From the IMG/VR virus record IMGVR_UViG_3300045988_143356: DNA of 64,000 bases, one strand, 5' to 3'. This document shows, in pieces, positions 49,737 to 62,909 of this stretch. The notes below the pieces were generated by a model, which was given only the letters and a program-made list of their open reading frames with translations, did no database searches and had not been told where the DNA came from. The first letter of the stretch is position 1, and every line of letters starts with the position of its first letter. A program made the translations under genes and the position numbers. This DNA is from a virus.

Positions 49737-49780
49737 GTTCAACGGGGCCGTCGTAAGGCGGCCCATAAACCCAAGACATC

Positions 49781-50122: not shown

Positions 50123-50141
50123 CAATTAAACAATCAGAGAC

Positions 50142-50648: not shown

Positions 50649-50663
50649 CACACTATTTTAATC

Positions 50664-50903
50664 ATGAGAGTAATAGAGATAACTGAAAGCAAGCTGGACA
50701 AGATGTCCGACTTGGCAGAGGAAATGCTGACCGCCGGGGGCAGACTGATGCACTGCATCAGCGAGTTGGGTGAGGAAAGCGGCCTGAATATGCGGATGGG
50801 TGACGGGGACTACCGGTCAATGTCAACCATGAGGCGCAGGCATGAACGTGATGACTATGACGGTGACGACTTCGGCGAGCGCCGCCGCAGATACCGCTAT
50901 TAG
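50664..50903 (+). CDS. hypothetical protein
   Basis: 79-aa ORF, Arg/Asp-rich tail. Confidence 0.45.
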   Translation: MRVIEITESKLDKMSDLAEEMLTAGGRLMHCISELGEESGLNMRMGDGDYRSMSTMRRRHERDDYDGDDFGERRRRYRY

Positions 50904-50905
50904 CC

Positions 50906-51738: not shown

Positions 51739-51768
51739 GGCGGCAAGTTGCCCATTTGTCAAATAAAG

Positions 51769-51802
51769 GCACCGTGCGAACCTCCACCACACGGTGCTTT
51801 TT
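51769..51802. terminator. bidirectional rho-independent terminator
   Basis: GCACCGTG…CACGGTGC 8-bp stem, T5 downstream and A-run upstream, between convergent genes. Confidence 0.6.
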
Positions 51803-51803
51803 G

Positions 51804-52376
51804 TCAGTCATTTAGAAGGAAATCCTCCGCATACGGCAATGACCTTATGAAGTCGCAGAAAGCACCGTAGTCCTCTTTTAGTTTGTGGTTCTTGCGTTGT
51901 GCATATATGTTCCTAAGACACAGATAGTTGGTCGTGCAACGCATAAACAACTCTATGCCCTGGGGACAGTTCGACACCAGACGCATAAAGTTCGCGTATG
52001 TCGGGGACTCGTTATACTCTTTCTGCAAGGCCGTGACTTCCTTGATTGTGTTTTCGGTAACATATTTGTTACAACACTCCTTTATGTTCATCTTACTCAG
52101 ACGGTGCATCTTGCTGCTGGAGTTCACTATCTTGAAGAAGGTGTACCGTTGCAGCTCCGGACTGATGTAGTTCGGATATACCAGATCAAAGGCGACACGG
52201 ATTCCGGAAAGAAAGTTGGAGTGGCCGCCGCCAAGCGGCGCGAGTTTCCTTGCCCTTTCAAGCGATTTCTCGAACTCCTCATCAGTGTATTCCGGCAATT
52301 CAAGCCGCATCGAGTTGCGGCACGCTATGACCGATTCCTTCAAGTCATAGACCTTCACATTCTCAACCCTCAGCAT
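51804..52376 (-). CDS. ThyX-like protein with degenerate signature
   Basis: GGGHSNFLSGIRVAFDL…LQRYTFFKIVNSSSKMH aligns by eye to the ThyX GHxSxLEH…RHR-x7-S…SxRY region, but RHR is RYT and SQRY is SKMH. Confidence 0.45.
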   Translation of the reverse strand: MLRVENVKVYDLKESVIACRNSMRLELPEYTDEEFEKSLERARKLAPLGGGHSNFLSGIRVAFDLVYPNYISPELQRYTFFKIVNSSSKMHRLSKMNIKECCNKYVTENTIKEVTALQKEYNESPTYANFMRLVSNCPQGIELFMRCTTNYLCLRNIYAQRKNHKLKEDYGAFCDFIRSLPYAEDFLLND

Positions 52377-52632
52377 TGTTCTTCTCCACGATTAAAGGAT
52401 TGTAAAGCATTGATCCAACATAGTCCTGGTCTTCAAAAGATTCGATGCAGAACTGAACCATAGAGTAACCCATCAGAGCAAGGAACCTGTATATGGTGTC
52501 CTTGCTCGGAGGTGTGGAACCACGCTCTATCTTCCACAGCGTGCTTTTGGACACGCCGAGACGAGCGGCGAATGTCCGGAGGCTCTCGTTGCACTCCAGA
52601 CGCGCTTTCTTGAATACTTTGCCTGGATTCAT
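52363..52632 (-). CDS. XRE-family helix-turn-helix regulator
   Basis: SLRTFAARLGVSKSTLWKIERGSTPPSKDTIYRF. Confidence 0.7.
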   Translation of the reverse strand: MNPGKVFKKARLECNESLRTFAARLGVSKSTLWKIERGSTPPSKDTIYRFLALMGYSMVQFCIESFEDQDYVGSMLYNPLIVEKNNAEG

Positions 52633-52904
52633 CAGAACTTATTAATTTGGTTGATTATCTGCACCACGGTATTGACACGTTCCTTAGCAATCTTCTTTGT
52701 CAAGCCGTTGGCGTCAGCGCGCTCGGCCCGTTTGATAAGAGCGTTGGATAATTCAAGAAGACCTTGGAGTATCGCTCCCTTCGCAAGATAGATGTCTTTG
52801 CCCTTACTTTCTTTTTCGCAGAGCGTGGCGGTGATTGTGCCGTCCTCGGCGAATGTCACGGCAATCTTTGCCGGTTTCTTACAGTCCAGTGCTTCCATAT
52901 CCAC
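52632..52904 (-). CDS. hypothetical protein
   Basis: 90-aa ORF. Confidence 0.5.
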   Translation of the reverse strand: MDMEALDCKKPAKIAVTFAEDGTITATLCEKESKGKDIYLAKGAILQGLLELSNALIKRAERADANGLTKKIAKERVNTVVQIINQINKF

Positions 52905-53310
52905 CTGTTCCCCTTTTTGTTTCCGACAACTCCTCGACTTCGATGAGTTCCACTTCCGGAAGCTTCATGAACACCATCTGTGCGATTCTGTCACCTACTG
53001 AATAGACGTTATCCTTGGAAGTATCAGTGACGTTGAACACAGCCGTTACCTCTCCGCGATAGTCTGAATCGATGACTCCCACACAGTTCGACAGCGACAA
53101 GTCCTTCTTGCACACTGACGAACGCGGGAATATCAATCCCGTATAACCCACCGGAATCTCGAAAGCGAGTCCGAAGAAGTACTTGACTTGATTCCTTTCC
53201 TTGTCCCAGAACGCGGATATGGCCGTCAAGTCGTAACCGGCAGAGTTATCCGTCCCCTTTCTTGGCATCACCGCTTCGGGTGACAGTCTTTTGATTTTTA
53301 CATTTATCAT
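52879..53310 (-). CDS. dut: dUTP diphosphatase
   Basis: MPRKGTDNSAGYDL, GVIDSDYRGEV, GDRIAQMVF, RGTGGYGSTG motifs. Confidence 0.85.
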   Translation of the reverse strand: MINVKIKRLSPEAVMPRKGTDNSAGYDLTAISAFWDKERNQVKYFFGLAFEIPVGYTGLIFPRSSVCKKDLSLSNCVGVIDSDYRGEVTAVFNVTDTSKDNVYSVGDRIAQMVFMKLPEVELIEVEELSETKRGTGGYGSTGL

Positions 53311-53481
53311 TTATAATACTGTTTTAATGCGCTCTTGCGCTATGGAAAAATAGTCTCTATCCAATTCGATTCCCATGAAATCATATCCCAACTTCTTGCA
53401 GGCTATTCCAGTTGTCCCAGCACCGTCCAACTCGTGGACGCCAACGAAAGCGTCTTTGTCAAGTATCGTCTCTTTTCTTTT
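53311..53481 (-). pseudogene. start-less fragment resembling a DNA methyltransferase C-terminus (motif I region)
   Basis: Hand translation …KRKETILDKDAFVGVHELDGAGTTGIACKKLGYDFMGIELDRDYFSIAQERIKTVL*. No start codon; +1 frame relative to the overlapping zinc-ribbon ORF. Confidence 0.4.
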
Positions 53482-53695
53482 TATTGTATTCCCTGTAATA
53501 TTCCAAAACTTTCTTTCTGTACTCCGGATCCCCCCGCATCTTTTGGGCGTGCCGGACCTGACCCGCTTCGGTGTACTTCATACTGTTCTCCTTGCGGCAG
53601 TACTTGCAGTAAGAGTCAAGACCGTCCCTCCGTGTCTTGTTGCGGTAGAACTCCGACTCCGGAAGCTCCTCACCGCAATGGCTGCATCGCTTCAC
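53459..53695 (-). CDS. zinc-ribbon protein
   Basis: CSHCGEELPESEF…DSYCKYCRKE. Confidence 0.6.
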   Translation of the reverse strand: MKRCSHCGEELPESEFYRNKTRRDGLDSYCKYCRKENSMKYTEAGQVRHAQKMRGDPEYRKKVLEYYREYNKKKRDDT

Positions 53696-54344
53696 GTGAC
53701 ACCTCCTCCGCTGTCATATATCCGGCGAAGGCGCCGTTATTCACGAACGTCTCCAGATCATACCATATAGGCTCCCATCCGAAATCGGCCTTTCTCAGAA
53801 AGTTTTTCCGGTCCGGAACCGGGACAAGCCTGCGCTGCCATGTCCGGAACATTGTTTTGCCGTTCACGACTATATGCTCCGTGTCGTCGAAGCAGCTTGC
53901 GAACGTCTCCCAAGGGAGGAGATCGTCAAGATCATTCACGGTGAAGTAGGTCTTTATCTGTGGAACCTTCCTTTCAAAAAGATATCTTCCCGTGTGGGCG
54001 TCATAATTGATGTTCGCGTATGTCAGCAGCTCATCAAAAGATCTGACACCCTGCGCCTGAATAAATTTGAACAGCGTATCAAAAGGGTTGAACTTGTCTT
54101 CCCGAGTCATCCGGTCTATCCGGTAGCCGAACGGGAGGAAGTGCAGATGCTCGTATATCTCCCTGCGAATGTCCTCCGCTGTGAACCTTCTTCTTTCCGG
54201 GGATAGCTTGTTGTAGTAGTGTTGCGGAATGTCGTATGCAAGACTTGCGACATAAGTCTTACTTCCTATCGCGTATCGGTAGGAAGTCCACATCAGCATC
54301 TCCTCGAACAAGGAGCATTTCTCTTCTTTCTTTTTCTTTTTCAT
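53670..54344 (-). CDS. hypothetical protein
   Basis: ATG 54344 (MKKKKKEEK…) inside track ORF 53670..54422. Confidence 0.55.
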   Translation of the reverse strand: MKKKKKEEKCSLFEEMLMWTSYRYAIGSKTYVASLAYDIPQHYYNKLSPERRRFTAEDIRREIYEHLHFLPFGYRIDRMTREDKFNPFDTLFKFIQAQGVRSFDELLTYANINYDAHTGRYLFERKVPQIKTYFTVNDLDDLLPWETFASCFDDTEHIVVNGKTMFRTWQRRLVPVPDRKNFLRKADFGWEPIWYDLETFVNNGAFAGYMTAEEVSREAMQPLR

Positions 54345-54454
54345 ACTCTGAAAATTTATGGGAAGGCCGCCCCTTCCCGGATATATATTGAATGGCTTGG
54401 CTTTAAAACACCCCGGCGGCAAGAGTGTAGCCGTTTTACCTACAAGAAACGTGC

Positions 54455-54628
54455 CTATTTGCGTATTTCTGTAAATAATGCGTCCACGAACTTGGTGTTA
54501 TCCGTGAAAAATGAAAGTCCTATTCTCGCGAAGGTACCGTTCTTTGTAGTGGACATCGATATCATCGTAACTTCTAACTGTTTGCTTCTGATGACTGTGC
54601 CGTCATCCATTTTTAATGTAAGTTCCAT
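54455..54628 (-). CDS. small hypothetical protein (57 aa)
   Basis: Hand translation MELTLKMDDGTVIRSKQLEV…; fills a gap in the gene string. Confidence 0.3.
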   Translation of the reverse strand: MELTLKMDDGTVIRSKQLEVTMISMSTTKNGTFARIGLSFFTDNTKFVDALFTEIRK

Positions 54629-54756
54629 ATCCTATGTTTTAAGCACGCCACAGAGTCCTCTTTCAGCGCAAATTGCCACCGACGGCAATAGATGTCCCCT
54701 GATATTTGTGTGAAGTACACGCAGGAGTTGCAGAAAAGTTTCTGTTTGGTCAGCAT
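54613..54756 (-). CDS. small Cys-rich hypothetical protein (47 aa)
   Basis: Hand translation MLTKQKLFCNSCVYFTQISGDICYCRRW…. Confidence 0.3.
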   Translation of the reverse strand: MLTKQKLFCNSCVYFTQISGDIYCRRWQFALKEDSVACLKHRIWNLH

Positions 54757-54759
54757 AGC

Positions 54760-55059
54760 CTATTCCATCGTGTTGATAGCCTCGTTGAGAAAGGAAGCGA
54801 AAGTATTGACGAAAGACTCGTCATCATATAGGTCATCCTTTCGCATCGTGTTCAGTATGGCGTGGACAAGCTCGTGAAGGAAAGTCTGCTGCTGAAATGA
54901 CTGCGGCACGTCACGGTTCCCGCATGTCTGGGCTATTTGTATAACCTTCCGGACGGGATCGTATTGCCCAAAATCTTGTTCATACCTTACCGCCTGCTGA
55001 ATCTCGACAACGTGCTCCACGCCGCCGAGTGTGAATGCTTTTGGTATATTGAAATCCAT
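54760..55059 (-). CDS. HExxH-motif protein (ImmA/IrrE-like candidate)
   Basis: FLHELVHAILN; ATG 55059 preferred to the TTG used by the track (55065). Confidence 0.5.
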   Translation of the reverse strand: MDFNIPKAFTLGGVEHVVEIQQAVRYEQDFGQYDPVRKVIQIAQTCGNRDVPQSFQQQTFLHELVHAILNTMRKDDLYDDESFVNTFASFLNEAINTME

Positions 55060-55061
55060 AC

Positions 55062-55229
55062 TCAAATTGTTTTATTCATCGCCTCGCTCACCGAATATCC
55101 CTTCTCGATGAGCCTTTTGATTTTCCTGCGTTCCTCCCTCGTGAAGAACATTCCGGCTTCACCGAATGTTACCGGATTACCATTGCCGTCATATTTGAAC
55201 GGAATTCGCTTGAACTCTTCGTTTGTCAT
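55062..55229 (-). CDS. small hypothetical protein (55 aa)
   Basis: Hand translation MTNEEFKRIPFKYDGNGNPVTFGEAGMFFTREERRKIKRLIEKGYSVSEAMNKTI. Confidence 0.35.
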   Translation of the reverse strand: MTNEEFKRIPFKYDGNGNPVTFGEAGMFFTREERRKIKRLIEKGYSVSEAMNKTI

Positions 55230-55230
55230 G

Positions 55231-55386
55231 TTATTCCTTGTTTAATTCGTCAACGGAGTGCCAGGTTATCCAGACAATGGCCGGGACACCGAACAGCGTT
55301 TCAAGTTTCTTGGCGATTTTCGTACTGACCTTGCCCTTCCCTTTGATTATGTCGTTCAGCCAAGGAGGGGCAACGCCGACTGTCAT
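55231..55386 (-). CDS. short HigA/XRE-like HTH fragment protein
   Basis: LNDIIKGKGKVSTKIAKKLETLFGVPAIVWI resembles the second half of antidote-type HTH domains; ATG 55386 overlaps the upstream stop. Confidence 0.45.
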   Translation of the reverse strand: MTVGVAPPWLNDIIKGKGKVSTKIAKKLETLFGVPAIVWITWHSVDELNKE

Positions 55387-55514
55387 TGCCCGTCCTCCTC
55401 GTCCAGGTCGCACTCGACCTCGACATCATCGTTGCCGTAATAGACGACGCCCTTCAGATGCTTGCAGCCCACACAGTTGTACGGACACTCGCACGGAGCG
55501 TCAAGCGGTATCAT
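55383..55514 (-). CDS. small Cys-rich acidic protein (43 aa)
   Basis: Hand translation MIPLDAPCECPYNCVGCKHLKGVVYYGNDDVEVECDLDEEDGQ. Confidence 0.3.
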   Translation of the reverse strand: MIPLDAPCECPYNCVGCKHLKGVVYYGNDDVEVECDLDEEDGQ

Positions 55515-55519
55515 TTCCG

Positions 55520-55741
55520 CTAACTTTGTCCTTCGCATAATTTATCTACCTTTTGTTTGAACTTCTTGACCTCCTCGACGTATTTCCCCTCGATTTCCAG
55601 AGCATATTCTGGGATTGCCTCATAATGCCACCACCGCTTGCGCTTCCCGAAGTACTTGACAATATAGACACGCTGTCCATCGTCCACGACGGTGGCCACA
55701 TAATGATACAAAAGGCCGTAATAGTGATACTGAGGTGCCAT
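55520..55741 (-). CDS. hypothetical protein
   Basis: 73-aa ORF. Confidence 0.5.
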   Translation of the reverse strand: MAPQYHYYGLLYHYVATVVDDGQRVYIVKYFGKRKRWWHYEAIPEYALEIEGKYVEEVKKFKQKVDKLCEGQS

Positions 55742-55742
55742 T

Positions 55743-56039
55743 CTACTCGAATACAGAGTTGATGAACCTGTCCGCCATCTGCTCTATCTCCTCATCCGTT
55801 GGCTTCGGGAATTCAATGTCTTCTTTCATGAATTTATTAAACATCCCGAACATACCGTCAGGCACACTCACGCTCTTGATTCCGGACACGAGAGCTTCTT
55901 TTAGCATTCCGTTATCTCTGAAATGTCTCAGCAGTTCTGTCAGGCTTGTTATGATGCACCTGTCGCAGAACGGACTTTTCTTTGCCTCGCAGACTTTAAA
56001 CGCAATCGAAAAGAGGGCTTTTTGTAATTTCTCTTCCAT
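55743..56039 (-). CDS. hypothetical protein
   Basis: 98-aa ORF. Confidence 0.5.
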   Translation of the reverse strand: MEEKLQKALFSIAFKVCEAKKSPFCDRCIITSLTELLRHFRDNGMLKEALVSGIKSVSVPDGMFGMFNKFMKEDIEFPKPTDEEIEQMADRFINSVFE

Positions 56040-56045
56040 AATATT

Positions 56046-56465
56046 TTAGATTTTAAGGTTGTCCGCCAATTCAGATAAACCACATAACCGCAACGCGTGC
56101 TGCAACTCGTGGACGTACTTGATAGGACATGAAATGTTATACATATTGTTGCTTATCTCCACGTTGCGACATTCCCCGTTGTATCTATAATTGACAAGCA
56201 CATATAGATTCTCAGAATTATCTATGTGCAGAATCAATCCAGAGCCTATCGTATCCTGCGTGAATCCGTTATTAGTTAGAATATCAGTAGTGAGCGGTAT
56301 TGGTTTGATATATTCACTCTTAAATGAATATTCTATAGACTTCAGCGGCGACATTATAATAATAAAATCTTCTCCGTTATTATATGCAGCTTTTATTGTT
56401 GTAACCTTAACCGAACCACCAAAACAATCAACCCAGTCTCCCAATTGTAAATCAGAAACTTTCAT
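56046..56465 (-). CDS. hypothetical protein
   Basis: 139-aa ORF. Confidence 0.55.
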   Translation of the reverse strand: MKVSDLQLGDWVDCFGGSVKVTTIKAAYNNGEDFIIIMSPLKSIEYSFKSEYIKPIPLTTDILTNNGFTQDTIGSGLILHIDNSENLYVLVNYRYNGECRNVEISNNMYNISCPIKYVHELQHALRLCGLSELADNLKI

Positions 56466-56466
56466 A

Positions 56467-56847
56467 TTATTCCTTCCAAGTTATTTTACAAGTGGCCACA
56501 ACATTTAATTTATCAGCTACTGCCAATTTAGCAGTTTTCTCGTCCTTGTGAGGATGGTTTGTTGCTATAAAGATTTCTCCGCTTGAGCTTATTGCCAGAT
56601 TAATCCAACCCTCATGTTTTTCGGTAGCAAAGAATAAATCCATACATGAATCTGTATCCACATACCGTCTCCCATTAGGAAGACATGAAAAACAATTTTC
56701 AATTCCATCACTCGCGAAGCAAAGAGCAAGAATTGGACGATCTCCTCCCTGTCTGTCAGTACAAATAATTCTTGCGTCCCTACCGTCTCTTGTAATGACT
56801 TTTCTCTTTGGGTTTTTGAGGTATTCCTCCAAGTTGAATTGCATCAT
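56467..56847 (-). CDS. hypothetical protein, tandem paralogue A
   Basis: EEYLKNPKRKVITRDGR…DLFFA…EGWINL…VATCKITWKE; paralogue of 56850..57230. Confidence 0.55.
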   Translation of the reverse strand: MMQFNLEEYLKNPKRKVITRDGRDARIICTDRQGGDRPILALCFASDGIENCFSCLPNGRRYVDTDSCMDLFFATEKHEGWINLAISSSGEIFIATNHPHKDEKTAKLAVADKLNVVATCKITWKE

Positions 56848-56849
56848 GA

Positions 56850-57230
56850 TTATTCCTCCCATTCGATTTTGCAGGTCGCAACATAGTCTTTTATATACTT
56901 AGATTCCATCTTTGCATCCTTTTCAGATCCGATAGGATAAACAGTACCGATAGCTACTCTACCATCTTCGTTTTTGTACAGATTCAGCCAACCCTCTTTC
57001 TTTTGTGGAGCGAAGAAAAGATCGCTATCTGTGTCTCCTTCTGTGTAAAGTTTCCCATCAGCCGTATAAGAATTCCAACTTTCATGAGTAGGATCCTTCT
57101 TATAAACCGCAAGAACCGGGTAAATGGCTCCCATAACATCGGCACAGACAATTCTCACACTCCTGCCGTCACGAGTAATAACTTTACGGTTTGGATTCTT
57201 TTGATATTCTTCTACAGTAAACTGTTTCAT
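56850..57230 (-). CDS. hypothetical protein, tandem paralogue B
   Basis: EEYQKNPNRKVITRDGR…DLFFA…EGWLNL…VATCKIEWEE. Confidence 0.55.
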   Translation of the reverse strand: MKQFTVEEYQKNPNRKVITRDGRSVRIVCADVMGAIYPVLAVYKKDPTHESWNSYTADGKLYTEGDTDSDLFFAPQKKEGWLNLYKNEDGRVAIGTVYPIGSEKDAKMESKYIKDYVATCKIEWEE

Positions 57231-57292
57231 ATTATCTATTTTTTTTAATTTTTCAAATCTACGATCGCTCTGTTAACATGTCAAATCCTATT

Positions 57293-57916
57293 TTAGTCTG
57301 CTGATGAGGCCCAGGACCCGAGGGATGGATAAACCAATTCCCATCCCGCCTCCTTAATGGCGTTGACAGATTTGATGTCCAGCTTGTATCCTTCCCAGTT
57401 GTAGCAGTCACCGATTCCTCCATAGCAGGTGGACACCTTCTTGATGAGTCCGGCGTCAACCAGAGTCTGAATCTTCTCCGGCGTGTTCCTGTAGAGACTC
57501 TTCCTGTCCTTGGGGTCGTCTGCCTCAATATAGAGGAACTCCAGTACATCGTAGTAATATTTGCCGAACACCTGGATTTTCCTTTCCCACGCCTTCTTCT
57601 GTATCTCCAGCCACTCCTCAGTATCGGGATTCTCCTCCGGGGTGAGATAGACTTTCCTAAGAGCTAATCCCAGACTCTTCACAACACCCTTGGCGGATTT
57701 GCTGGTGGCCTTGGTGACGTCAAAGAGCTTAGGATTATCTTCGATATACTGCATCAGCGCCGTCTTCTTGATTCCCAGTTCACTGGCTGTCTCGGTAACG
57801 AGGGCGAAGGTCGAGCAGTTGACCTTCTGGATCAACGACACAATCCGGTGGACTTCAGAGATCTGGAGTTCCGATGGTTTCCCTTTTCTAATACTTTCTT
57901 TTAGTTTATCGTTCAT
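57293..57916 (-). CDS. hypothetical protein
   Basis: 207-aa ORF. Confidence 0.55.
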   Translation of the reverse strand: MNDKLKESIRKGKPSELQISEVHRIVSLIQKVNCSTFALVTETASELGIKKTALMQYIEDNPKLFDVTKATSKSAKGVVKSLGLALRKVYLTPEENPDTEEWLEIQKKAWERKIQVFGKYYYDVLEFLYIEADDPKDRKSLYRNTPEKIQTLVDAGLIKKVSTCYGGIGDCYNWEGYKLDIKSVNAIKEAGWELVYPSLGSWASSAD

Positions 57917-57936
57917 AATGATTTTTATTTCTTATT

Positions 57937-58263
57937 TTATTGCTGCACTTTGAATTGTTCGTATCCTTCGAGAAATAGTGCACGGGCTACATCTTTTTTC
58001 CATTCCTCAAAATTTCCATATTTTTCTCCGTTACTCGAATAGTGATACCTGTATTTTGATCCACAACCAGGACATTCAAAACACAGAAAATACCCATTTT
58101 CAGTAACACAATATCCCACAATACCTTCTCGATATGCTGATCGATGTGTAAAATGGTAGTTACAGTTATCACATGCACATGACTTATTGTACCTATATTC
58201 CTCGTAGTTGAGGATTTCCGGTAAATTCCATTCTCCTTTACCAAATTCGTGTCTGAAAATCAT
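57937..58263 (-). CDS. zinc-ribbon-like hypothetical protein
   Basis: CACDNCNYHF…CPGCGSKY. Confidence 0.5.
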   Translation of the reverse strand: MIFRHEFGKGEWNLPEILNYEEYRYNKSCACDNCNYHFTHRSAYREGIVGYCVTENGYFLCFECPGCGSKYRYHYSSNGEKYGNFEEWKKDVARALFLEGYEQFKVQQ

Positions 58264-58496
58264 CTTCTTGAGCTAAATTGGTTCTTCATTGCTTTTCTGA
58301 ATCTAATCTCAAAGTCATCAAACCAAGATATTCCTATCTCTTCCTTTTGATGCTTGAACCACTCGACGGCTTTTTCTATCAATTCGGATTGCATCCACTC
58401 TGAACCTGCAATGAACGCTTCTTCTATTTCAGTTGGAACATAATCTTGCGAACCTATATTAGATTCATATTCTTTTGCTTTTTCTTCGATACTCAT
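58260..58496 (-). CDS. hypothetical protein
   Basis: 78-aa ORF, 4-nt overlap with the next gene. Confidence 0.5.
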   Translation of the reverse strand: MSIEEKAKEYESNIGSQDYVPTEIEEAFIAGSEWMQSELIEKAVEWFKHQKEEIGISWFDDFEIRFRKAMKNQFSSRR

Positions 58497-58498
58497 AA

Positions 58499-58690
58499 CT
58501 ATTTCTTTCTTTTCGGTTTATAATTATCGCATATAGTCTGTCTTGGATTATTGCAAGGCCCGATACCAAACAATTTGCAAGACTTACAGATTTTCTTCTC
58601 TGATTTTCTTAATTGATATGATGGTATCTTCTTGAAATTGAAATCAGTAGGTTCGACCCCAAAAAGTTGAATTGGTGAATATCTTGACAT
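58499..58690 (-). CDS. small Cys-containing protein
   Basis: 63-aa ORF, CKSCKLFGIGPCNN. Confidence 0.45.
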   Translation of the reverse strand: MSRYSPIQLFGVEPTDFNFKKIPSYQLRKSEKKICKSCKLFGIGPCNNPRQTICDNYKPKRKK

Positions 58691-58692
58691 AA

Positions 58693-58929
58693 CTATTGTA
58701 TTGGTTCATCCGTATCACCATCCCATACATTACCATCATTGGTATATATGTTATCATCATCACCGTAATGCCAACATTTTGGACAGTAATGTTTTCCCCC
58801 AAGTGTACGCCACGAATTATCGTCTGCTACCTCTTTTGCTCCCTCTGGGTCAGCACACCACGACGAATCATCTGCCAATGTTTTACAGCAATCGCATTCA
58901 ATATTGTAAAAATATTCTTTTATTAACAT
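58693..58929 (-). CDS. small zinc-ribbon-like protein
   Basis: 78-aa ORF, CDCCKTL…CPKCWHY. Confidence 0.45.
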   Translation of the reverse strand: MLIKEYFYNIECDCCKTLADDSSWCADPEGAKEVADDNSWRTLGGKHYCPKCWHYGDDDNIYTNDGNVWDGDTDEPIQ

Positions 58930-58931
58930 AA

Positions 58932-59159
58932 CTATTTCTTTTTAAGTTCTTTAATAAGTGCATCTGCAACCTCTACTGCTTCCTTTGTGCAATTTTCTGG
59001 AGAAAGAGTCTTATATATTCTGTTGGGATTTGAATACCATGCTATAAGCACATCTTTTGCAATTTCATACCTGCGCTGATCCCAGTCGATTTCCTTTGAT
59101 TGGGCTTCACGGAAATATCTTGTCGCCGATTCCAAGAACGTTTGTTCAAGATCTGTCAT
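58932..59159 (-). CDS. hypothetical protein
   Basis: ATG 59159 (MTDLEQTF…) gives an ATGA junction with the upstream gene; the track start 59228 would overlap it by 73 nt. Confidence 0.45.
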   Translation of the reverse strand: MTDLEQTFLESATRYFREAQSKEIDWDQRRYEIAKDVLIAWYSNPNRIYKTLSPENCTKEAVEVADALIKELKKK

Positions 59160-59413
59160 AATCCAAATATTTTTCTGATTATCAAGTAAATCAACCATAA
59201 TATAGACGCAACGAGAAAGAGTGGCCAAAGTATAATCATCATCCTAACACCTTGCGTATTTGTGTGCCAAGCTGGATCAGGAGGATACTTTTCGAGCAAA
59301 AGCGGTTTTATTGAATAACCCCATTTGAGAAGCGTTAACTCCGTCTTTTCCCAAGCCGAAGCGACAATGGCACCTATGAATATGTAGCCAAGAATAATTA
59401 GTATAATCTTCAT
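59156..59413 (-). CDS. small membrane protein
   Basis: Two hydrophobic helices (IILIILGYIFIGAIVA, MMIILWPLFLVASILWLIYLI). Confidence 0.5.
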   Translation of the reverse strand: MKIILIILGYIFIGAIVASAWEKTELTLLKWGYSIKPLLLEKYPPDPAWHTNTQGVRMMIILWPLFLVASILWLIYLIIRKIFGL

Positions 59414-59808
59414 TTTAATTCTTCTTCAAGAACTAATCCACCTTTCAATACATGTTGTTGCATCAATGGAGATAGTTTTATCATCTGCTCATAAGTAGGT
59501 CTTACCCAGTTGTGCAACTTAGCGCCAGAAATAAACTCCAATTTAAGCCATTCCGTATAAGAGATGGTCGTTTTATGTAACATTATCGCTGCTTTACAGA
59601 AACGGCACCCAATCGTAAATGGGGTTACACCTTTTGCTGTATATTGTGTATAAAAACTCTTGCCGCATTTCTCGCAGATATAAACATCCACGCCAGTGCC
59701 TCTGCCGTCAAATATACGGGCAGTTTCAATGTCTTTAAGCATCTGGTCGTACTTTTTCTTTAATTCTTCCATAGAATTATATTTTTTAATAGCTATTCCT
59801 CCCACCAT
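59410..59808 (-). CDS. zinc-ribbon-like hypothetical protein
   Basis: CEKCGKSF…CRFCKAA. Confidence 0.5.
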   Translation of the reverse strand: MVGGIAIKKYNSMEELKKKYDQMLKDIETARIFDGRGTGVDVYICEKCGKSFYTQYTAKGVTPFTIGCRFCKAAIMLHKTTISYTEWLKLEFISGAKLHNWVRPTYEQMIKLSPLMQQHVLKGGLVLEEELK

Positions 59809-60245
59809 TTATAGTACTTCGGAGCATCATCGTTTGTGCCTACAAGATGAGCGGTTTTGTCGTTGTAAGGGATTTGTTGTTTCCACATTCCAGTATGGGA
59901 AAATACCGCAGCTACCCACCAAGAAGCATCATAATCTCTTACCAATACCTTATCAAATGGCTTCAACGTCTCAGGGTCAAAACGCTCCTTCTTTGGCTTG
60001 AATGTACTCCAGTCACGGTTGTCCTTTGAGGGAAATAACAAGCATTCATCGCCTAATTCGCTGATTGCCCCATTAGGGAAGAATGTCTTATTGCAAATTA
60101 TATTGGCAGTCCCTACATAATTGACAGTCACAAATTTATCGACAACCGAATATAAACTACAAACACCATAAAGTGGTGTGTACAGCTTCGTCCCTTTCGG
60201 GCTGTCTTTCAGAATCTCGCAGAGATTCAGTTCTTTATTTTCCAT
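59793..60245 (-). CDS. hypothetical protein
   Basis: 150-aa ORF. Confidence 0.5.
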   Translation of the reverse strand: MENKELNLCEILKDSPKGTKLYTPLYGVCSLYSVVDKFVTVNYVGTANIICNKTFFPNGAISELGDECLLFPSKDNRDWSTFKPKKERFDPETLKPFDKVLVRDYDASWWVAAVFSHTGMWKQQIPYNDKTAHLVGTNDDAPKYYKWWEE

Positions 60246-60621
60246 AACCTATTTTGCTTTGATTAAGTCTCAACATTCTCTCCAGATACTTTTGGTTCCC
60301 GTAGATCACATCCGACACCTTAAGCTGGAAGCGGTTGTAGGAGTCGATATACATAAGCTGCCTCCTGAAATACTTTGTGGCGCATCTGTAAGCCTCCTTG
60401 TAAGCCTTTGTTACGGCTCTCGCCTTGGCTATTTTCCTGCCTATAGACTCGTCATAGGTGTCTTCCGGATTACACTTAGCCCTGCCTATGGCATAATACT
60501 CGTGATACCAACTTGGGGTTATCTGCGTGCGTATGCGCATACGGCATTCAGTCGTATGGCCCGTGACAGAATAGTCCTCCTCTACAATCCTTACCTTAAT
60601 TGATTGGTTTGTGTGTCTCAT
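60235..60621 (-). CDS. hypothetical protein
   Basis: 128-aa ORF. Confidence 0.5.
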   Translation of the reverse strand: MRHTNQSIKVRIVEEDYSVTGHTTECRMRIRTQITPSWYHEYYAIGRAKCNPEDTYDESIGRKIAKARAVTKAYKEAYRCATKYFRRQLMYIDSYNRFQLKVSDVIYGNQKYLERMLRLNQSKIGYGK

Positions 60622-60655
60622 TTTAAAAATTAGCTAAATTGTAATCCTTAATCTT

Positions 60656-61255
60656 TCAAAACGGAAGCTCGGCGCGAACACCTTGCGGAGCCACTGAACC
60701 AGCCGTCCTCTTCTTGAAAGCGTCGGCGGTGACATCCAAAAGCACGATGGGAGCCGCCATGTACTTGAGGTACAGGCCGCAGCCGTACACGTAACCGTAG
60801 AAGCCGTTCGAGACCCACCCGCGATCCCGGTTGCCCCGGGAGCAACTCCAGACGCCGGCGCTAAAATACTCCATAAGATCCGCCCCGTCTATCTTTCTTG
60901 CTAACTTGTCAATCTCGCCATCCTGCTCCGTTATCTCCATCGCCGCCAGCAGGGTCGGCAGTCCGAATCTGCCGAACTTTTCGGAGGTGAATTTTGTGGC
61001 AAACCTCGCCGCCGGGCTTCCAGCTTTAAGAAGCGCGGCGGTGGCCGCCTGGTTATCCCTCAACCTCAGCGCGCGCATCACGGAAATTCCCGCGTCGAAC
61101 CACCTATCCCTATCCTTTGGATCCAGCAACTCCTCGTTGCTGTACCTCGGGTAAATGAGAGCCCTCTGCCAGTTCAGGAGGTCGATCTCGATACCCTCGA
61201 TACATTCAAGCCTGTTCTGGCCGTCGCATCCGTCCTTGTAGATAATCCTTGCCAT
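60656..61255 (-). CDS. hypothetical protein with C-terminal ELPF tip
   Basis: ATG 61255 (MARIIYKDG…) inside track ORF 60656..61336; ends …VRAELPF. Confidence 0.5.
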   Translation of the reverse strand: MARIIYKDGCDGQNRLECIEGIEIDLLNWQRALIYPRYSNEELLDPKDRDRWFDAGISVMRALRLRDNQAATAALLKAGSPAARFATKFTSEKFGRFGLPTLLAAMEITEQDGEIDKLARKIDGADLMEYFSAGVWSCSRGNRDRGWVSNGFYGYVYGCGLYLKYMAAPIVLLDVTADAFKKRTAGSVAPQGVRAELPF

Positions 61256-61292
61256 AATCAAAAAATCTTTCTGTAATTCATGACTCCGCGCC

Positions 61293-62021
61293 TCATAGCT
61301 CCAGCCCGTATTCCATGGCCACCTGCCTGATGACATCGCCGCCGTAGTCGCCCGCGGTCTCCGTAAGGAACGTCCTCAGGGTGATGCTGTCAGTAGGATT
61401 GTACCCGTGTTCCTCGCACCACTGCCTCCTTCCGAACTCGCAGGAGCCTGTCAATATGTGATGCCAGTCGAACAGGTCGCCATACTCCTCATCCAATGCC
61501 GGGTGGGTCTTCGCGAACTCCGCTATCCTCTCGTCCAGCGGCCTGTTCTTCCTCCACTTGGCCTCGACCGCCTCGACCGCCTCGTGGAGCGTGTTACTGT
61601 GGGCGAAGAAGTTCCCTCGCTTGGCTATCCAGCAGTCCCTCAACGTCAAATCCCTGCACAGAACCGCGCCCTTGGCGACATTGCCACGCAAGTCATAGAT
61701 AAGTGTCAACACTCCGTCGATGTCATAGACCTTGCGGCCGTTGAACTCCTTGATGCCGTCACCGTCACCGGAACCGGAACCGTAACCGTAACCGTCACCG
61801 TCACCGTCACCGTCACCGGAACCGGAACCGGAACCGGAACCGGAACCGGAACCGTAACCGTCACCGTCACCGGAACCGGAACCGGAACCGTCACCGTCAC
61901 CGTCACCGTCACCGTCACCGGAACCGGAACCGGAACCGTAACCGTCACCGTCACCGGAACCGGAACCGGAACCGGAACTTATGGCAAGGAACCGCTCGAT
62001 ATCCTTTTCTATCGCTTCCAT
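61293..62021 (-). CDS. protein with a long (GS/GD/GY)n low-complexity linker
   Basis: MEAIEKDIERFLAISSGSGSGSGDGDGYGSGS… about 75 aa of dipeptide repeats followed by a 150-aa globular part. Confidence 0.55.
   Translation of the reverse strand: MEAIEKDIERFLAISSGSGSGSGDGDGYGSGSGSGDGDGDGDGDGSGSGSGDGDGYGSGSGSGSGSGSGDGDGDGDGYGYGSGSGDGDGIKEFNGRKVYDIDGVLTLIYDLRGNVAKGAVLCRDLTLRDCWIAKRGNFFAHSNTLHEAVEAVEAKWRKNRPLDERIAEFAKTHPALDEEYGDLFDWHHILTGSCEFGRRQWCEEHGYNPTDSITLRTFLTETAGDYGGDVIRQVAMEYGLEL
61755..61978. repeat. in-frame hexanucleotide microsatellite (ACCGTC/ACCGGA/ACCGTA)n
   Basis: About 37 consecutive 6-nt units on the plus strand; encodes GD/GS/GY on the minus strand. Confidence 0.9.
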
Positions 62022-62314: not shown

Positions 62315-62350
62315 CTTTAATCATTAAAAGTTAAACAATCTGTATAAACT

Positions 62351-62453
62351 TGGCCCGGAGCGCGGAGTCGAACCGCCTTTTGTCAAAATCATCAATTTGT
62401 GTTTTTAGCATCGCTACGTATTCCCGCGTCCCCGTGGACGCTTTCTCTCCTGG
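62351..62453 (-). ncRNA. tRNA-like element with 6-bp/4-nt D-type hairpin and canonical T-loop (weak model)
   Basis: CCAGGAG-AGAAA-GCGTCC-ACGG-GGACGC-(49 nt)-GCGG-TTCGACT-CCGC-G-CTCCGGG-CCA; acceptor 6 of 7 pairs; no convincing anticodon arm. Confidence 0.3.
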
Positions 62454-62528
62454 CTTTTCGCGCGTCACCGCGCTACTTGGGTTGGAAGGTAACTCCTGGG
62501 CTACCTTGTCCTCGCTTGCGAGGCTTCG

Positions 62529-62640
62529 CTCCACGGTGAGGAATCGAACCTCACTGTCGTCCTACGCTTTGAATGAAGTGTGTCTTTTCGGGGCGTCTTC
62601 ATTCATTGTGCCGGAAACGCCATATTCCGGCCTTCGTGGA
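62529..62640 (-). ncRNA. expanded cloverleaf tRNA-like element (112 nt)
   Basis: TCCACGA-AG-GCCGGAA-TATGGCGT-TTCCGGC-ACAA-TGAATGAAG-(18-nt loop)-CTTCATTCA-(16 nt)-TGAGG-TTCGATT-CCTCA-CCGTGGA-G; four-way junction, GG in the D-type loop. Confidence 0.4.
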
Positions 62641-62654
62641 GTTTTGCCGTCTCC

Positions 62655-62909
62655 CTAAACGGTATATTCCCAGTTCGTCATTGCTGGCGGATCATCGTCC
62701 TCTATCGAATCCGACATAAAGACAACCATGTCCACTGTGACACCTACAAAATCCATGCCTTTGTAGTCATCGAAGCGGTAGTCCAGGACAAGTTTCCTTG
62801 CCTCCGCCGCGTCATTTGCCCAACAGTCGCACTCTATCGGCCTGTTGTAAACCTCGCCATTCCAGTCCTCGTGCTGGACAGTGGCGCAAACTTTGAATAA
62901 CTTAATCAT
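62655..62909 (-). CDS. hypothetical protein
   Basis: 84-aa ORF ending 14 nt before the tRNA-like element. Confidence 0.5.
   Translation of the reverse strand: MIKLFKVCATVQHEDWNGEVYNRPIECDCWANDAAEARKLVLDYRFDDYKGMDFVGVTVDMVVFMSDSIEDDDPPAMTNWEYTV

What the first reader, a model, noticed from the sequence alone, without database searches (positions are those of the whole stretch)
62341..62654. 310-nt structured non-coding island with two T-arm-bearing cloverleaf-like RNAs next to the serine recombinase
The gap between 62655..62909 and 62009..314 has no ORF but is rich in structure on the sense (minus) strand.

1. Element 62640->62529 folds as a four-way junction. It has acceptor TCCACGA/CCGTGGA (6 bp plus an A-C at 7:66), a 7-bp D-type stem with loop TATGGCGT containing GG, a 9-bp stem with an 18-nt loop, a 16-nt variable region, and the T-arm TGAGG-TTCGATT-CCTCA.
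2. Two tetraloop hairpins follow: CCTCG-CAAG-CGAGG and GCGCG-GTGA-CGCGC (GNRA).
3. Element 62453->62351 has a 6-bp/4-nt hairpin (the geometry of the tRNA-Sec D-arm), a T-arm with loop TTCGACT, and ends CTCCGGG-CCA.

At 112 nt and about 103 nt these are too long for ordinary tRNAs. The recombinase gene lies only 250 nt upstream, so this could also be its recombination site (attP-like) carrying tRNA-derived sequence.
Basis: partly seen in the sequence, partly recalled or inferred. Interest (0 to 1): 0.65.

Follow-up and report, generated by a model that had tools for sequence, protein, structure and literature searches.

The report
Anticodon-less tRNA-like RNA array in phage
The gap holds a conserved cluster of tRNA-shaped RNAs that lack an anticodon arm, in a gut Bacteroidales phage; they are one of several such elements between its early genes, probably cut out by the host's tRNA-processing enzymes, and are not true tRNAs or a recombination site.

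Summary
On the minus strand the island holds these parts:
- element 1 (62641->62529), a four-way junction;
- three hairpins;
- element 2 (62454->62353), which has an 8-bp acceptor-like stem, a 6-bp/ACGG hairpin and a 4-bp T stem.

Neither element is a tRNA or a tmRNA. ARAGORN and Rfam find nothing. The 'anticodon' arm of element 1 is optional among relatives. Element 2 has no conserved helix at that position. The terminal 'CCA' is not conserved.

The recombinase neighbours the island in only a minority of relatives, and no host tRNA gene shares the sequence, so the attP idea is not supported.

The island is part of a wider pattern. The window has four more sense-oriented tRNA-like elements in intergenic gaps or leaders: 1070->1011, 624->581 and 282->238 (all minus), and 3166-3349 (plus). 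Each ends about 20-38 nt before the next start codon.

The best reading is that these are tRNA mimics, recognised by host RNase P and RNase Z or the CCA-adding enzyme. Cutting them would punctuate the early transcripts and release tRNA-shaped small RNAs, much like plant-mitochondrial t-elements. The processing itself is inferred, not shown. This is a new variant of a known kind.

The parts
62529..62641 (-). Element 1, a tRNA-like four-way junction. It has a 7-bp acceptor-like stem (62641-35 / 62535-29), then AA, and a 7-bp D-like stem (62631-25 / 62616-10) whose loop TATGGCGT contains GG. It has an optional 9-bp arm with an 18-nt loop (62605-597 / 62578-570) and a conserved joiner AAGCGTAGGACGACA. 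The 6-bp T stem (62554-49 / 62541-36) has loop TTCGATT (62548-42).
   Evidence: Sequence; fold. Alignment A2 of 12 relatives: 98.6% paired and 14 pairs with double changes. A U.G pair at acceptor pair 3 in 7 of 12 sequences fixes the strand. The arm is absent or replaced in 6 of 12 relatives.
62510..62523 (-). Hairpin H1, CCTCG-CAAG-CGAGG.
   Evidence: Sequence; fold. It is only loosely conserved in relatives, where it alternates with GCCT...AGGC. No clear covariation.
62486..62507 (-). Hairpin H2, AAGGTA-GCCCAGGAGT-TACCTT.
   Evidence: Fold. Conserved in most relatives. It shifts to GGTAG/CTACC in L017-type sequences and is absent in L001- and L012-type sequences.
62460..62473 (-). Hairpin H3, GCGCG-GTGA-CGCGC. 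It has a GNRA tetraloop and always lies directly 5' of element 2.
   Evidence: Alignment A3: 98% paired, two pairs covary (CG/GC/GU and CG/GC/UA/AU), and the loop stays GNGA.
62353..62454 (-). Element 2, a tRNA-like RNA without an anticodon arm. It has an 8-bp acceptor-like stem (62454-47 / 62360-53), then AGAAA, and a 6-bp hairpin with invariant loop ACGG (62441-26). A ~49-nt A/C-rich linker follows, with conserved GGGAATACGT but no conserved helix. The 4-bp T stem (62376-73 / 62365-62) has loop TTCGACT, and there is a bulged G at 62361. The tail is CAAG.
   Evidence: Alignment A1 of 15 sequences: 96.7% paired and 8 pairs with double changes. RNAalifold finds no helix in the linker. Covariance model R1 finds exactly one copy in every related contig, at 96-132 bits. 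On 32 distinct sequences: 13 of 18 pairs covary.
1011..1070 (-). Further tRNA-like element (a). It has an acceptor-like stem, one hairpin and a T arm GGGGG-TTCGATT-CCCCT. It sits at the 3' end of a ~300-nt conserved leader and ends 30 nt before the ATG at 980.
   Evidence: Weak match to tRNA-Sec with the D and anticodon arms deleted (23 bits). T-stem covariation in L039 (GGGCGG/CCGCCT) and L080 (TGGTGG/CCACCA).
581..624 (-). Further tRNA-like minihelix (b): GGCCTCG-CATGGTGTTCA-GGAGGG-TTCGACT-CCCTCC-CGAGGCC, followed by CCA. It lies between ORF115 and ORF90.
   Evidence: The L039 homologue AGCCCCG-CATGGTGCGTT-GTGCCGG-TTCGTTT-CCGGCAC-GGGGCT keeps both stems through compensatory changes.
238..282 (-). 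Further tRNA-like minihelix (c): AGCCGTG-CCTTGGGGTTC-GGGGAGG-ATCGAAG-CCTCCCC-ACGGCT. It lies between ORF90 and the next ORF (ATG at 212).
   Evidence: Nearly identical in L039 and L080, so conserved, but covariation is not informative.
3166..3349 (+). Sixth tRNA-like element, in the leader of the primase gene. Acceptor-like stem GGGCGGCG/CGCCGCTC encloses a ~150-nt insert and a T arm CGTGGGG-TTCGAGT-CCCCGCG. It lies behind a Bacteroidota-type promoter (3096-3127) and ends 20 nt before the ATG at 3370.
   Evidence: Conserved in L046 and L047 with T-stem compensations. Only partly analysed.

Best explanation
**What it is.** The island is a tandem array of tRNA-shaped RNAs that keep the 'top half' of a tRNA. 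That means the acceptor-like stem stacked on a T arm with a TTCGANT loop, plus a D-like hairpin or linker carrying GG that can form the elbow. They have lost, or never had, a decoding anticodon arm. The island is transcribed on the minus strand as part of the phage's early operon.

**How it most likely works (inferred).** The host's generic tRNA-maturation enzymes recognise the tRNA shape. RNase P would cut at the 5' edge of each acceptor-like stem. RNase Z or exonucleases, followed by the CCA-adding enzyme, would act at the 3' edge. This would have two linked consequences:
1. The polycistronic early transcript is cut into separate mRNAs with defined ends. Every element ends about 20-38 nt upstream of the next start codon, which leaves a short A/U-rich leader of the kind Bacteroidota use.
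2. Stable tRNA-like small RNAs are released.

The same logic applies to the four other tRNA-like elements in the window.

**Shown:** structure, conservation, strand, position, non-membership of tRNA and tmRNA, and independence from the recombinase.

**Inferred:** transcription, cleavage by RNase P and RNase Z, and any role of the released RNAs.
For: 1. **Real structured RNA.** Compensatory changes occur in all main helices. Strand-specific U.G and G.U pairs are present.
2. **tRNA top-half features.** GGTTCGANTCC is enriched 5 against 0.15 expected. The acceptor and T stems stack continuously for 12-13 bp. GG is kept in the D-like loop or linker.
3. **The anticodon-arm position is dispensable.** It is optional in element 1, unstructured and indel-rich in element 2, and missing in the minihelices. 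Only the parts that RNase P and RNase Z read are kept. That these enzymes accept acceptor/T-arm minihelices is established knowledge.
4. **Six elements in one genome.** All are sense to the flanking genes and lie in intergenic gaps or 5' leaders. Each ends about 20-38 nt before the next ATG.
5. **The island behaves as an autonomous module.** Its upstream neighbour varies (SSB, ORF84 or an ORF90-like gene). Its downstream neighbour varies too (DUF6948, an ORF226-like gene or an ORF150-like gene).
6. **No phage-encoded partner.** No phage tRNA enzyme, Ro60, RtcB or SmpB was found among the 38 ORFs scanned with Pfam, about half of the roughly 79 ORFs in the window, so host enzymes must be the readers.
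7. **A real tRNA sits at an equivalent spot.** A distant relative has a genuine tRNA-Ser upstream of its primase gene.
8. **Precedent.** Plant-mitochondrial t-elements were found with the same GGTTCRANYCC motif and were shown to direct RNase P and RNase Z cuts that make mRNA ends (PMC1920247).
Against: - There is no expression or end-mapping data, so cleavage is not shown.
- One element would be enough to punctuate a junction, yet the island stacks two or three elements plus three hairpins.
- Element 2 has invariant single-stranded stretches (GGGAATACGT, ACGG, AGAAR). These suggest a specific partner beyond generic tRNA-shape readers.
- Most gene junctions in the same operon are tight and have no such element.
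- The stack is 13 bp rather than the canonical 12 bp in several elements.
- The 3' tails are C-[ACG]-A, not CCA.
- The related cultured Parabacteroides phage PF672P1 shows no such elements in the first 46 kb of its 59.4-kb record.
Confidence: 0.5

Rival explanations
1. Trans-acting tRNA mimics. The excised anticodon-less tRNA-like RNAs are the functional product. They would act as decoys or sponges for host factors that bind the tRNA acceptor end or elbow. Candidates are tRNA-targeting anti-phage nucleases or transferases, or tRNA-modifying or tRNA-binding proteins. Punctuation of the mRNA would be a side effect.
For: - Two or three elements are stacked in tandem with no ORF between them, like a small RNA gene cluster.
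- Element 2 has invariant unpaired motifs and exactly one copy per genome, at 96-132 bits.
- In most relatives the island sits at the head of the early-gene block, after an SSB gene and a hairpin.
Against: - No partner can be named.
- The minimal elements (b) and (c) have little sequence to be specific with.
- No defence-related context or literature precedent was found in the searches made.
- This reading still needs the processing step of the main explanation.
Confidence: 0.22
2. A cis-regulatory leader that works without tRNA enzymes. The structures would stabilise the downstream mRNA, or control its translation or transcription read-through, by binding a protein or the ribosome.
For: - The position is constant, about 20-38 nt upstream of start codons.
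- Two elements sit in primary 5' leaders directly behind Bacteroidota promoters.
Against: - This does not explain why all six elements keep a T-loop consensus and a tRNA-like coaxial stack.
- The downstream gene differs between relatives, so there is no gene-specific regulation.
Confidence: 0.12
3. Decaying tRNA genes, that is pseudogenes left from a former phage tRNA cluster, with no present function.
For: - Phages often carry tRNA clusters, and a distant relative has a real tRNA-Ser at a comparable site.
- Individual copies show defects: the A.G mismatch in the window, broken T-stem pairs in L017 and L029, and a truncated element 1 in L006.
Against: - There are dozens of compensatory double substitutions. 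Helices are 97-99% paired across sequences that are only ~70-80% identical.
- The non-tRNA features (7-bp D-like stem, 13-bp stack) are themselves conserved.
Confidence: 0.05
4. Functional non-canonical tRNAs, for example relatives of allo-tRNA or tRNA-Sec, that are aminoacylated and used in translation.
For: - Element 2 has the 8/4 acceptor/T geometry with one bulged base and a 6-bp/4-nt D arm. This matches what is described for allo-tRNAs and minor tRNA-Sec species, some of them in phages (PMC5389517).
- The distance between the D and T arms (~49 nt) could hold an anticodon arm plus a long variable arm.
Against: - No conserved anticodon stem-loop exists. The region has 1-12-nt indels, and one lineage has a wholly different sequence there.
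- ARAGORN and the Rfam tRNA and tRNA-Sec models do not detect it, even at E<=10.
- Acceptor identity positions, including the base pair next to the tail, are not conserved.
Confidence: 0.03
5. A DNA-level site: attP, or a res/hix-like site for the neighbouring serine recombinase, or an origin of replication.
For: - The recombinase gene ends 250 nt upstream in the window.
- Phage attP sites often contain tRNA 3' halves (established knowledge).
Against: - The adjacency holds in only a minority of contigs.
- The enzyme is a small resolvase type.
- No host tRNA gene matches.
- No matching inverted repeat lies elsewhere in the window.
- G.U pairs work on one strand only.
- Whole cloverleaf-like units are present, not 3' halves, and their sequence drifts with compensation.
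Confidence: 0.02

Closest known systems
t-elements of plant mitochondria (tRNA-like processing signals in mRNA flanks)
   Same: - Non-canonical cloverleaf or minihelix structures that keep the GGTTCRANYCC T-arm motif and an acceptor-like stem.
- They are embedded between or next to protein genes in the sense orientation.
- They are proposed, and for some shown, to be cut by RNase P and RNase Z so that mRNA ends are made and a small tRNA-like RNA is released (PMC1920247).
   Different: - The system here is a dsDNA phage of Bacteroidales, not an organelle.
- The elements here show lineage-wide covariation.
- They come in a tandem array with accessory hairpins.
- Processing has not been tested here.
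mascRNA / MEN-beta tRNA-like RNA (Rfam RF01684)
   Same: - A tRNA-like RNA without a real anticodon arm, excised from a longer transcript by RNase P and RNase Z and then given CCA (own knowledge).
- The third element present in relatives scores 28-31 bits against this model.
   Different: - The match is below the gathering score of 42.5.
- mascRNA is a vertebrate nuclear lncRNA product, so there is no homology, only an analogous shape and presumed processing.
tRNA-Sec and allo-tRNAs (8/5, 8/4 and 9/3 acceptor/T branches)
   Same: Element 2 has an 8-bp acceptor stem, a 4-bp T stem with one extra base, and a 6-bp D stem with a tetraloop (PMC5389517).
   Different: - It has no conserved anticodon arm or variable arm.
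- The 5-nt joiner between the acceptor and D stems replaces the usual 2 nt.
- Rfam tRNA-Sec does not detect it.
tmRNA tRNA-like domain
   Same: The acceptor and T-arm module is kept while the anticodon arm is replaced by other RNA.
   Different: - There is no tag reading frame and no pseudoknots.
- There is no G3.U70 alanine identity pair.
- The 5' and 3' strands of each element pair locally.
- ARAGORN and the four Rfam tmRNA models are negative.
Bacterial Y RNA-like YrlA (tRNA-mimicking module)
   Same: An RNA module with T-arm, D-arm and acceptor-like stem that host tRNA enzymes recognise; some are phage-encoded (PMC4201824, listed).
   Different: - YrlA is circularly permuted relative to a tRNA. 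The ends form the Ro60-binding helix and the acceptor stem is closed by a loop.
- YrlA is linked to an rsr (Ro60) gene. Neither feature is seen here (Rfam negative).
Phage P4 CI RNA, phage P1/P7 C4 RNA, and phage T4 stable RNAs C and D
   Same: Small phage RNAs cut out of operon leaders or tRNA clusters by host RNase P (own knowledge, not checked here).
   Different: They have different structures and hosts. No sequence or model comparison was possible with the tools used.

Membership tests
tRNA (Rfam RF00005; ARAGORN) | Acceptor stem stacked on a T arm with a 7-nt T-psi-C-type loop | tested here: met
   Both elements have it. The stack is 13 bp in element 1. In element 2 it is 8 bp + 4 bp with a bulged G.
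tRNA (Rfam RF00005; ARAGORN) | Conserved anticodon arm (5-bp stem, 7-nt loop) | tested here: not met
   In element 1 the arm is 9 bp with a 16-18-nt loop, and it is absent or replaced in 6 of 12 relatives. In element 2 there is no conserved helix.
tRNA (Rfam RF00005; ARAGORN) | Detected by tRNA gene finders or the covariance model | tested here: not met
   ARAGORN finds 0 genes in the window and in the related loci. Rfam gives nothing at gathering scores or at E<=10.
tRNA-Sec / allo-tRNA | 8-9-bp acceptor stem, short T stem, 6-bp D stem with a tetraloop | tested here: met
   Element 2 only; description of the family in PMC5389517.
tRNA-Sec / allo-tRNA | Anticodon arm plus a long variable arm; score above the Rfam RF01852 threshold | tested here: not met
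   There is no conserved helix between the D-like and T arms. No RF01852 hit on the island. Only the third element of relatives and window element (a) reach 23-30 bits against a threshold of 47, and then with both arms deleted.
tmRNA | tRNA-like domain formed by the distant 5' and 3' ends, tag reading frame, pseudoknots, G3.U70 | tested here: not met
   ARAGORN tmRNA search negative. Rfam tmRNA families negative. The stems pair locally, and pair 3 is C-G or U.G in the wrong orientation.
t-element-like tRNA mimics used as processing signals | Non-canonical tRNA-like fold with the GGTTCRANYCC motif, sense-oriented in the flanks of protein genes | tested here: met
   Six elements, all sense-oriented and intergenic or in leaders.
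t-element-like tRNA mimics used as processing signals | Transcript ends coincide with the element borders (RNase P and RNase Z cleavage) | not testable with these tools
Y RNA-like YrlA | Ro60-binding helix formed by the RNA ends; linkage to an rsr (Ro60) gene | tested here: not met
   No Ro60/TROVE hit among the 38 ORFs scanned with Pfam, about half of the roughly 79 ORFs in the window. The topology is not permuted. Rfam negative.
attP / recombinase target site | Sequence identity to the 3' part of a host tRNA gene; conserved linkage to the recombinase | tested here: not met
   The GTDB scan found only a phage-like Bacteroidales contig and three chance hits in coding DNA. The linkage holds in a minority of contigs. 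One representative genome per species limits the strength of the first test.

The most novel reading that the evidence does not exclude
A previously undescribed class of phage-encoded, anticodon-less tRNA-shaped small RNAs. A two- or three-member array plus dispersed minihelices would be excised from early transcripts by host tRNA enzymes. They would then act in trans as tRNA mimics, for instance by soaking up host immune effectors or other factors that recognise the acceptor end or elbow of tRNAs. That would make tRNA mimicry a counter-defence or host-takeover strategy of gut Bacteroidales phages.
Probability: 0.22. Interest if true: 0.8.

Novelty: new variant of a known kind. Interest (0 to 1): 0.6.

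Why it matters
tRNA-like processing signals are textbook for mitochondria and are known from one vertebrate lncRNA. A covarying family of anticodon-less tRNA mimics spread through the early genes of a DNA phage is not in Rfam, and the literature searches made here did not find it.

If host RNase P and RNase Z do cut them, gut Bacteroidales phages use 'tRNA punctuation' to organise early gene expression in a host phylum whose mRNA biology (no Shine-Dalgarno sequence, unusual promoters) is poorly understood.

If the released RNAs act in trans, they would be a new kind of phage tRNA mimic. That matters now because many anti-phage systems are being found to target tRNAs.

In practice, the family gives annotators six elements per genome that current tRNA and ncRNA pipelines miss. 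It also offers short, well-defined substrates for studying Bacteroidota tRNA-processing enzymes.

Tried and rejected
- **ARAGORN** on the window and on about 45 loci: no tRNA or tmRNA at any of these elements.
- **Rfam** at gathering scores and at E<=10: nothing on the island. Relatives and window 1-2200 gave only sub-threshold mascRNA and tRNA-Sec-minus-arms hits, plus a spurious miRNA hit on the GS/GD repeat.
- **blastn of the 1.7-kb region against 50,697 phage records:** no match.
- **attP test:** a GTDB pattern scan gave no host tRNA.
- **Invertase or resolvase site test:** no meaningful inverted or direct repeat links the island to another locus. The 28-nt similarity to 26403-26430 looks like chance among 19 such pairs.
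- **Search for an anticodon arm in element 2** by eye and with RNAalifold: none is conserved.
- **Histidine identity (G-1:C73):** considered and rejected, because the closing pair is G-C, A-U or C-G in different elements and relatives.
- **tmRNA or two-piece tmRNA reading:** rejected, because the stems pair locally and there is no tag frame.
- **Coding potential:** a stop-free antisense frame (62350-62658, plus strand) and a 67-codon sense frame exist. However, 1-nt indels between close relatives break them.
- **Loose geometric scans** for T-arm or minihelix shapes had high background: about 8 and about 3 hits per shuffled window. Only the perfect hits were used.
- **Parabacteroides phage PF672P1** (closest cultured relative, 37% TerL identity): no TTCGA-type T arms in its first 46 kb and no hit with model R1.
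- **Supplementary tables of PMC10690425** (10,006 candidate phage RNAs) are not held, so I could not check whether this motif is already among its unnamed candidates.
Full report
**1. What is in the sequence**

Read on the minus strand, the 340-nt gap between ORF84 (62655-62909) and ORF101 (62009-62314; Pfam DUF6948) contains the following parts in order.
- Element 1 runs 62641->62529.
  - Acceptor-like stem CTCCACG/CGTGGAG, then AA.
  - A 7-bp stem GCCGGAA/TTCCGGC with loop TATGGCGT.
  - A 9-bp arm with an 18-nt loop, then a 15-nt joiner.
  - A 6-bp T stem GTGAGG/CCTCAC with loop TTCGATT, which abuts the 3' acceptor strand directly.
- Three hairpins follow: H1 (62523->62510), H2 (62507->62486) and H3 (62473->62460, GNRA loop).
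- Element 2 runs 62454->62353.
  - An 8-bp stem GCCAGGAG/CTCCGGGC with one A.G mismatch.
  - Then AGAAA and a 6-bp hairpin with loop ACGG.
  - A 49-nt A/C-rich linker.
  - A 4-bp T stem with loop TTCGACT, and one bulged G.

The minimum-free-energy fold reproduces all of this. Its z-score is unimpressive: -1.67, and 7 of 100 shuffles fold as well.

**2. It is not a known RNA**

- ARAGORN finds no tRNA or tmRNA anywhere in the 64-kb window or in the related loci.
- Rfam 15 gives no match at the gathering thresholds. A sensitive search of 62250-62750 gives none even at E<=10.
- blastn against 50,697 phage records finds nothing.

**3. It is conserved, and the conservation is structural**

Relatives were collected in four ways:
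- searching IMG/VR with the flanking protein ORF101 gave 18 close loci;
- a pattern from the element-2 T arm added more viral loci;
- a GTDB scan gave one Bacteroidales metagenome-assembled contig;
- a metagenome scan gave 24 further loci, including human-gut assemblies.

The island is present in all of them. Its nucleotide identity to the window ranges from about 70% to 96%. Counting pairs on MAFFT alignments gave these results:

| Part | Sequences | Cells paired | Pairs with changes on both sides | Slid controls |
|---|---|---|---|---|
| Element 1 | 12 | 98.6% | 14 of 28 | 36-57% paired, 0-1 pairs |
| Element 2 | 15 | 96.7% | 8 of 18 | 35-52% paired, 0-1 pairs |
| H3 | 10 | 98% | 2 of 5 (loop kept GNGA) | 14-54% paired, 0 pairs |

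- A covariance model of element 2 finds exactly one copy per related contig, at 96-132 bits.
- The same model also hits element 1 weakly and full-length (18.9 bits). This points to a shared architecture.
- On its alignment of 32 distinct sequences, 13 of 18 pairs covary. That alignment is fitted to the model and includes five element-1 rows, so it leans towards the structure.
- U.G at acceptor pair 3 of element 1 (7 of 12 sequences) and the G.U pairs in H3 are pairs only on the window's minus strand. The selected object is therefore an RNA of that strand, not a DNA cruciform.
- The mechanical open frames over the island are not conserved. One-nucleotide indels separate close relatives.

**4. 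It is tRNA-shaped but not a decoder**

- The 9-bp arm of element 1 sits where an anticodon arm would be. It is present in six of twelve aligned relatives. In the others it is missing (L013, L014) or replaced by a small unrelated hairpin (L001, L003, L005, L007).
- In element 2, RNAalifold finds no helix at all between the D-like hairpin and the T arm.
- That stretch of element 2 varies by indels of 1-12 nt. One lineage has a wholly different sequence there, and another has a deletion.
- The conserved parts are the acceptor-like stem, the T arm with its TTCGANT loop, a GG-containing D-like loop or linker, and a few single-stranded motifs of element 2 (AGAAR, ACGG, GGGAATACGT).
- The acceptor/T geometry and the 6-bp/4-nt hairpin of element 2 match what Mukai et al. 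describe for tRNA-Sec and 8/4 allo-tRNAs (PMC5389517). Without an anticodon arm, however, it fails the defining test for those families.
- The base after each stem is always C, followed by A, G or C and then A (CAA, CGA or CCA). The window's 'CCA' after element 2 is one instance of this pattern. Relatives read GGCAT-CAAG.

**5. The island is modular and independent of the recombinase**

- Several relatives carry an extra hairpin and a third tRNA-like element between element 1 and H1. This element has an 8-bp stem, one hairpin and a T arm. Its only database resemblance is sub-threshold: mascRNA at 28-31 bits, and tRNA-Sec with two arms deleted.
- Four near-identical contigs lack element 1 altogether.
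- The upstream neighbour varies. In most contigs it is the 3' end of an SSB-like gene followed by a GC hairpin and an AT-rich stretch. In some it is an ORF90-like gene.
- Only in the window and a minority of contigs is the upstream neighbour the recombinase-ORF84 pair. Those contigs are L043, L012/L021, L022, L078, L060 and L068/L080.
- The downstream gene is usually DUF6948. In some contigs it is a homologue of window ORF 60656-61336 or of ORF 59793-60245.
- The recombinase is a 261-aa protein with only the resolvase catalytic domain.
- No host tRNA gene in one genome per 185,579 species contains the element-2 T-arm 20-mer.
- No repeat elsewhere in the window pairs with the island.

The attP or recombination-site idea is therefore not supported.

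**6. The same kind of element recurs in the genome**

GGTTCGANTCC occurs five times in the window against 0.15 expected. Besides the two island copies there are four more elements.
- Element (a), 1070->1011 (minus), lies at the end of a ~300-nt conserved leader. That leader starts at a perfect Bacteroidota promoter, TTTG-N19-TACCTTTG (1387->1357).
- Element (b), 624->581 (minus), is a bare minihelix: GGCCTCG-CATGGTGTTCA-GGAGGG-TTCGACT-CCCTCC-CGAGGCC, followed by CCA.
- Element (c), 282->238 (minus), is a second minihelix with loop ATCGAAG.
- The sixth element, 3166-3349 (plus), sits in the leader of the primase gene behind another Bacteroidota promoter (3096-3127).

These are documented. Relatives L039, L080, L046 and L047 keep these elements with compensatory changes in the acceptor or T stems of (a), (b) and the sixth element. 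Element (c) is nearly invariant.

All six elements are sense to their flanking genes, and each ends about 20-38 nt upstream of the next start codon. A geometric scan shows that (b) and (c) are the only perfect minihelices in the window. Most other junctions of the operon are tight, so this is selective punctuation, not punctuation of every gene.

**7. Context**

- The window is a siphovirus-like phage of about 65-70 kb. It encodes a terminase, portal, major capsid protein, tape-measure protein, primase and helicase.
- Bacteroidota-type promoters are enriched: 7 against 0.66 expected.
- The closest cultured relatives are Parabacteroides phages, at 37% TerL identity. One of them shows no such elements in the first 46 kb of its record.
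- Pfam scans of 38 ORFs, about half of the roughly 79 ORFs in the window, found no Ro60, RtcB, CCA-adding enzyme, SmpB or synthetase. Any reader of the tRNA shape is therefore most likely a host enzyme.
- The window is not a closed circle. A relative has about 5.4 kb between the two window ends. Elements (a)-(c) and the island therefore lie in the same long minus-strand early region but are not adjacent.

**8. Mechanism**

Only the parts of a tRNA that RNase P, RNase Z and the CCA-adding enzyme read are kept: the acceptor/T coaxial stack and the elbow (established knowledge). The elements sit in leaders and intercistronic gaps at a fixed distance from start codons. The best-supported explanation is therefore that they are tRNA mimics cut by the host tRNA-maturation machinery. 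Cutting would define mRNA ends and release tRNA-like small RNAs.

This is how plant-mitochondrial t-elements work. They were found with the same T-arm motif (PMC1920247). It is also how mascRNA is made (own knowledge).

Several observations suggest that the released RNAs may have a trans function of their own, such as a decoy or sponge for a tRNA-binding factor:
- the tandem stacking of two or three elements;
- the accessory hairpins;
- the invariant unpaired motifs of element 2.

That reading is the main rival and the most novel one. Decaying tRNA genes, functional odd tRNAs and DNA-level sites are each disfavoured by specific results described above.

**9. Novelty**

tRNA-like structures as such are well known. 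A large computational survey of IMG/VR reports unnamed 'tRNA or tRNA-like' candidates in phages (PMC10690425). Its tables could not be checked.

I found no description of a covarying, anticodon-less, multi-element tRNA-like array or of dispersed minihelices in phage early operons. The elements are absent from Rfam. I therefore rate this a new variant of a known kind, of moderate to high interest.

Noticed in passing
window 1080-1352 (minus strand), promoter at 1357-1387: A ~300-nt ORF-poor leader lies behind a perfect Bacteroidota promoter (TTTG-N19-TACCTTTG). It is 72-74% identical in L039 and L080, has a plausible long-range fold, and ends in tRNA-like element (a). It may be a separate structured RNA. 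Three sequences are too few to judge.
   Followed up: partly
window 3166-3349 (plus strand): A large tRNA-like element with a ~150-nt insert sits between the acceptor-like stem and a 7-bp T arm, in the primase leader. The ORF listing extends the primase ORF over it from a GTG at 3142, but the likely start is the ATG at 3370.
   Followed up: partly
L049, L052, L056, L057, about 100-230 nt upstream of the primase start (locus coordinates ~2270-2400): Distant primase relatives carry a different conserved motif upstream of primase: GGGTACGGCGC...GTACCCACC...TTCGGAG...CTTTT. It looks like a pseudoknotted or terminator-containing leader. L052 also has a real tRNA-Ser(TGA) and a second T-arm-bearing sequence there, and L056 has a tRNA-like GGCCGG...GGAGG-TCCGATT-CCTCC-GCCGGCC.
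   Followed up: no
window 61714-62013 (ORF 61293-62021, minus strand): A 12-nt-period repeat encodes a run of GSGSGDGDGD-type residues at the N-terminus of the 242-aa protein. Repeat length varies between relatives. The repeat produces a spurious Rfam microRNA hit in related loci.
   Followed up: no
window 2000-10000 versus 56000-60000: Composition is strikingly mosaic: 58-65% G+C with GC skew of +0.16 to +0.27 in the replication-gene block, against 37-41% G+C in part of the small-ORF block. A DUF1599 'nucleotide modification associated' domain is encoded at 4848-5366.
   Followed up: no
L019 / L020 4369-4443: Distant (32% identity) DUF6948 homologues in two other viral contigs are followed within ~75 nt by a genuine tRNA-Arg(CCT), and a second DUF6948 paralogue lies 3.3 kb away. 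DUF6948 genes may often neighbour tRNA or tRNA-like genes.
   Followed up: no
window 62350-62658 (plus strand): A stop-free antisense frame (102 codons from a TTG) spans the whole island and stays open over 320 nt in many relatives. One-nucleotide indels between close relatives shift it, so it is probably a by-product of composition.
   Followed up: yes
window 26403-26430 versus 62379-62406: The A-rich linker of element 2 (AAAAACACAAATTGATGATTTTGACAAA) resembles, in the same sense, a stretch of the tape-measure gene (79% over 28 nt). This is one of 19 similar-quality pairs in the window, so it is probably chance.
   Followed up: no
window ends (1 and 64000): The window is not a complete circle. 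In the 65-kb relative behind L080, about 5.4 kb separates the sequences homologous to the two window ends, and L078 continues past the window end into unrelated sequence.
   Followed up: partly
upstream of the island in most relatives, e.g. L003 ~3650-3720: The island is preceded by the end of an SSB-like gene (tail ...DLPF). A conserved pair of overlapping GC hairpins follows (ACCCGCCGCCGCGCGGGTCTTATCGCGGCG), then an AT-rich stretch and an extra 5' hairpin (CTCCGACGGCCAGCGGCGAACGCTCGCCCGAGGGA). All of these are missing from the window. They may be a terminator or attenuator plus a promoter.
   Followed up: no
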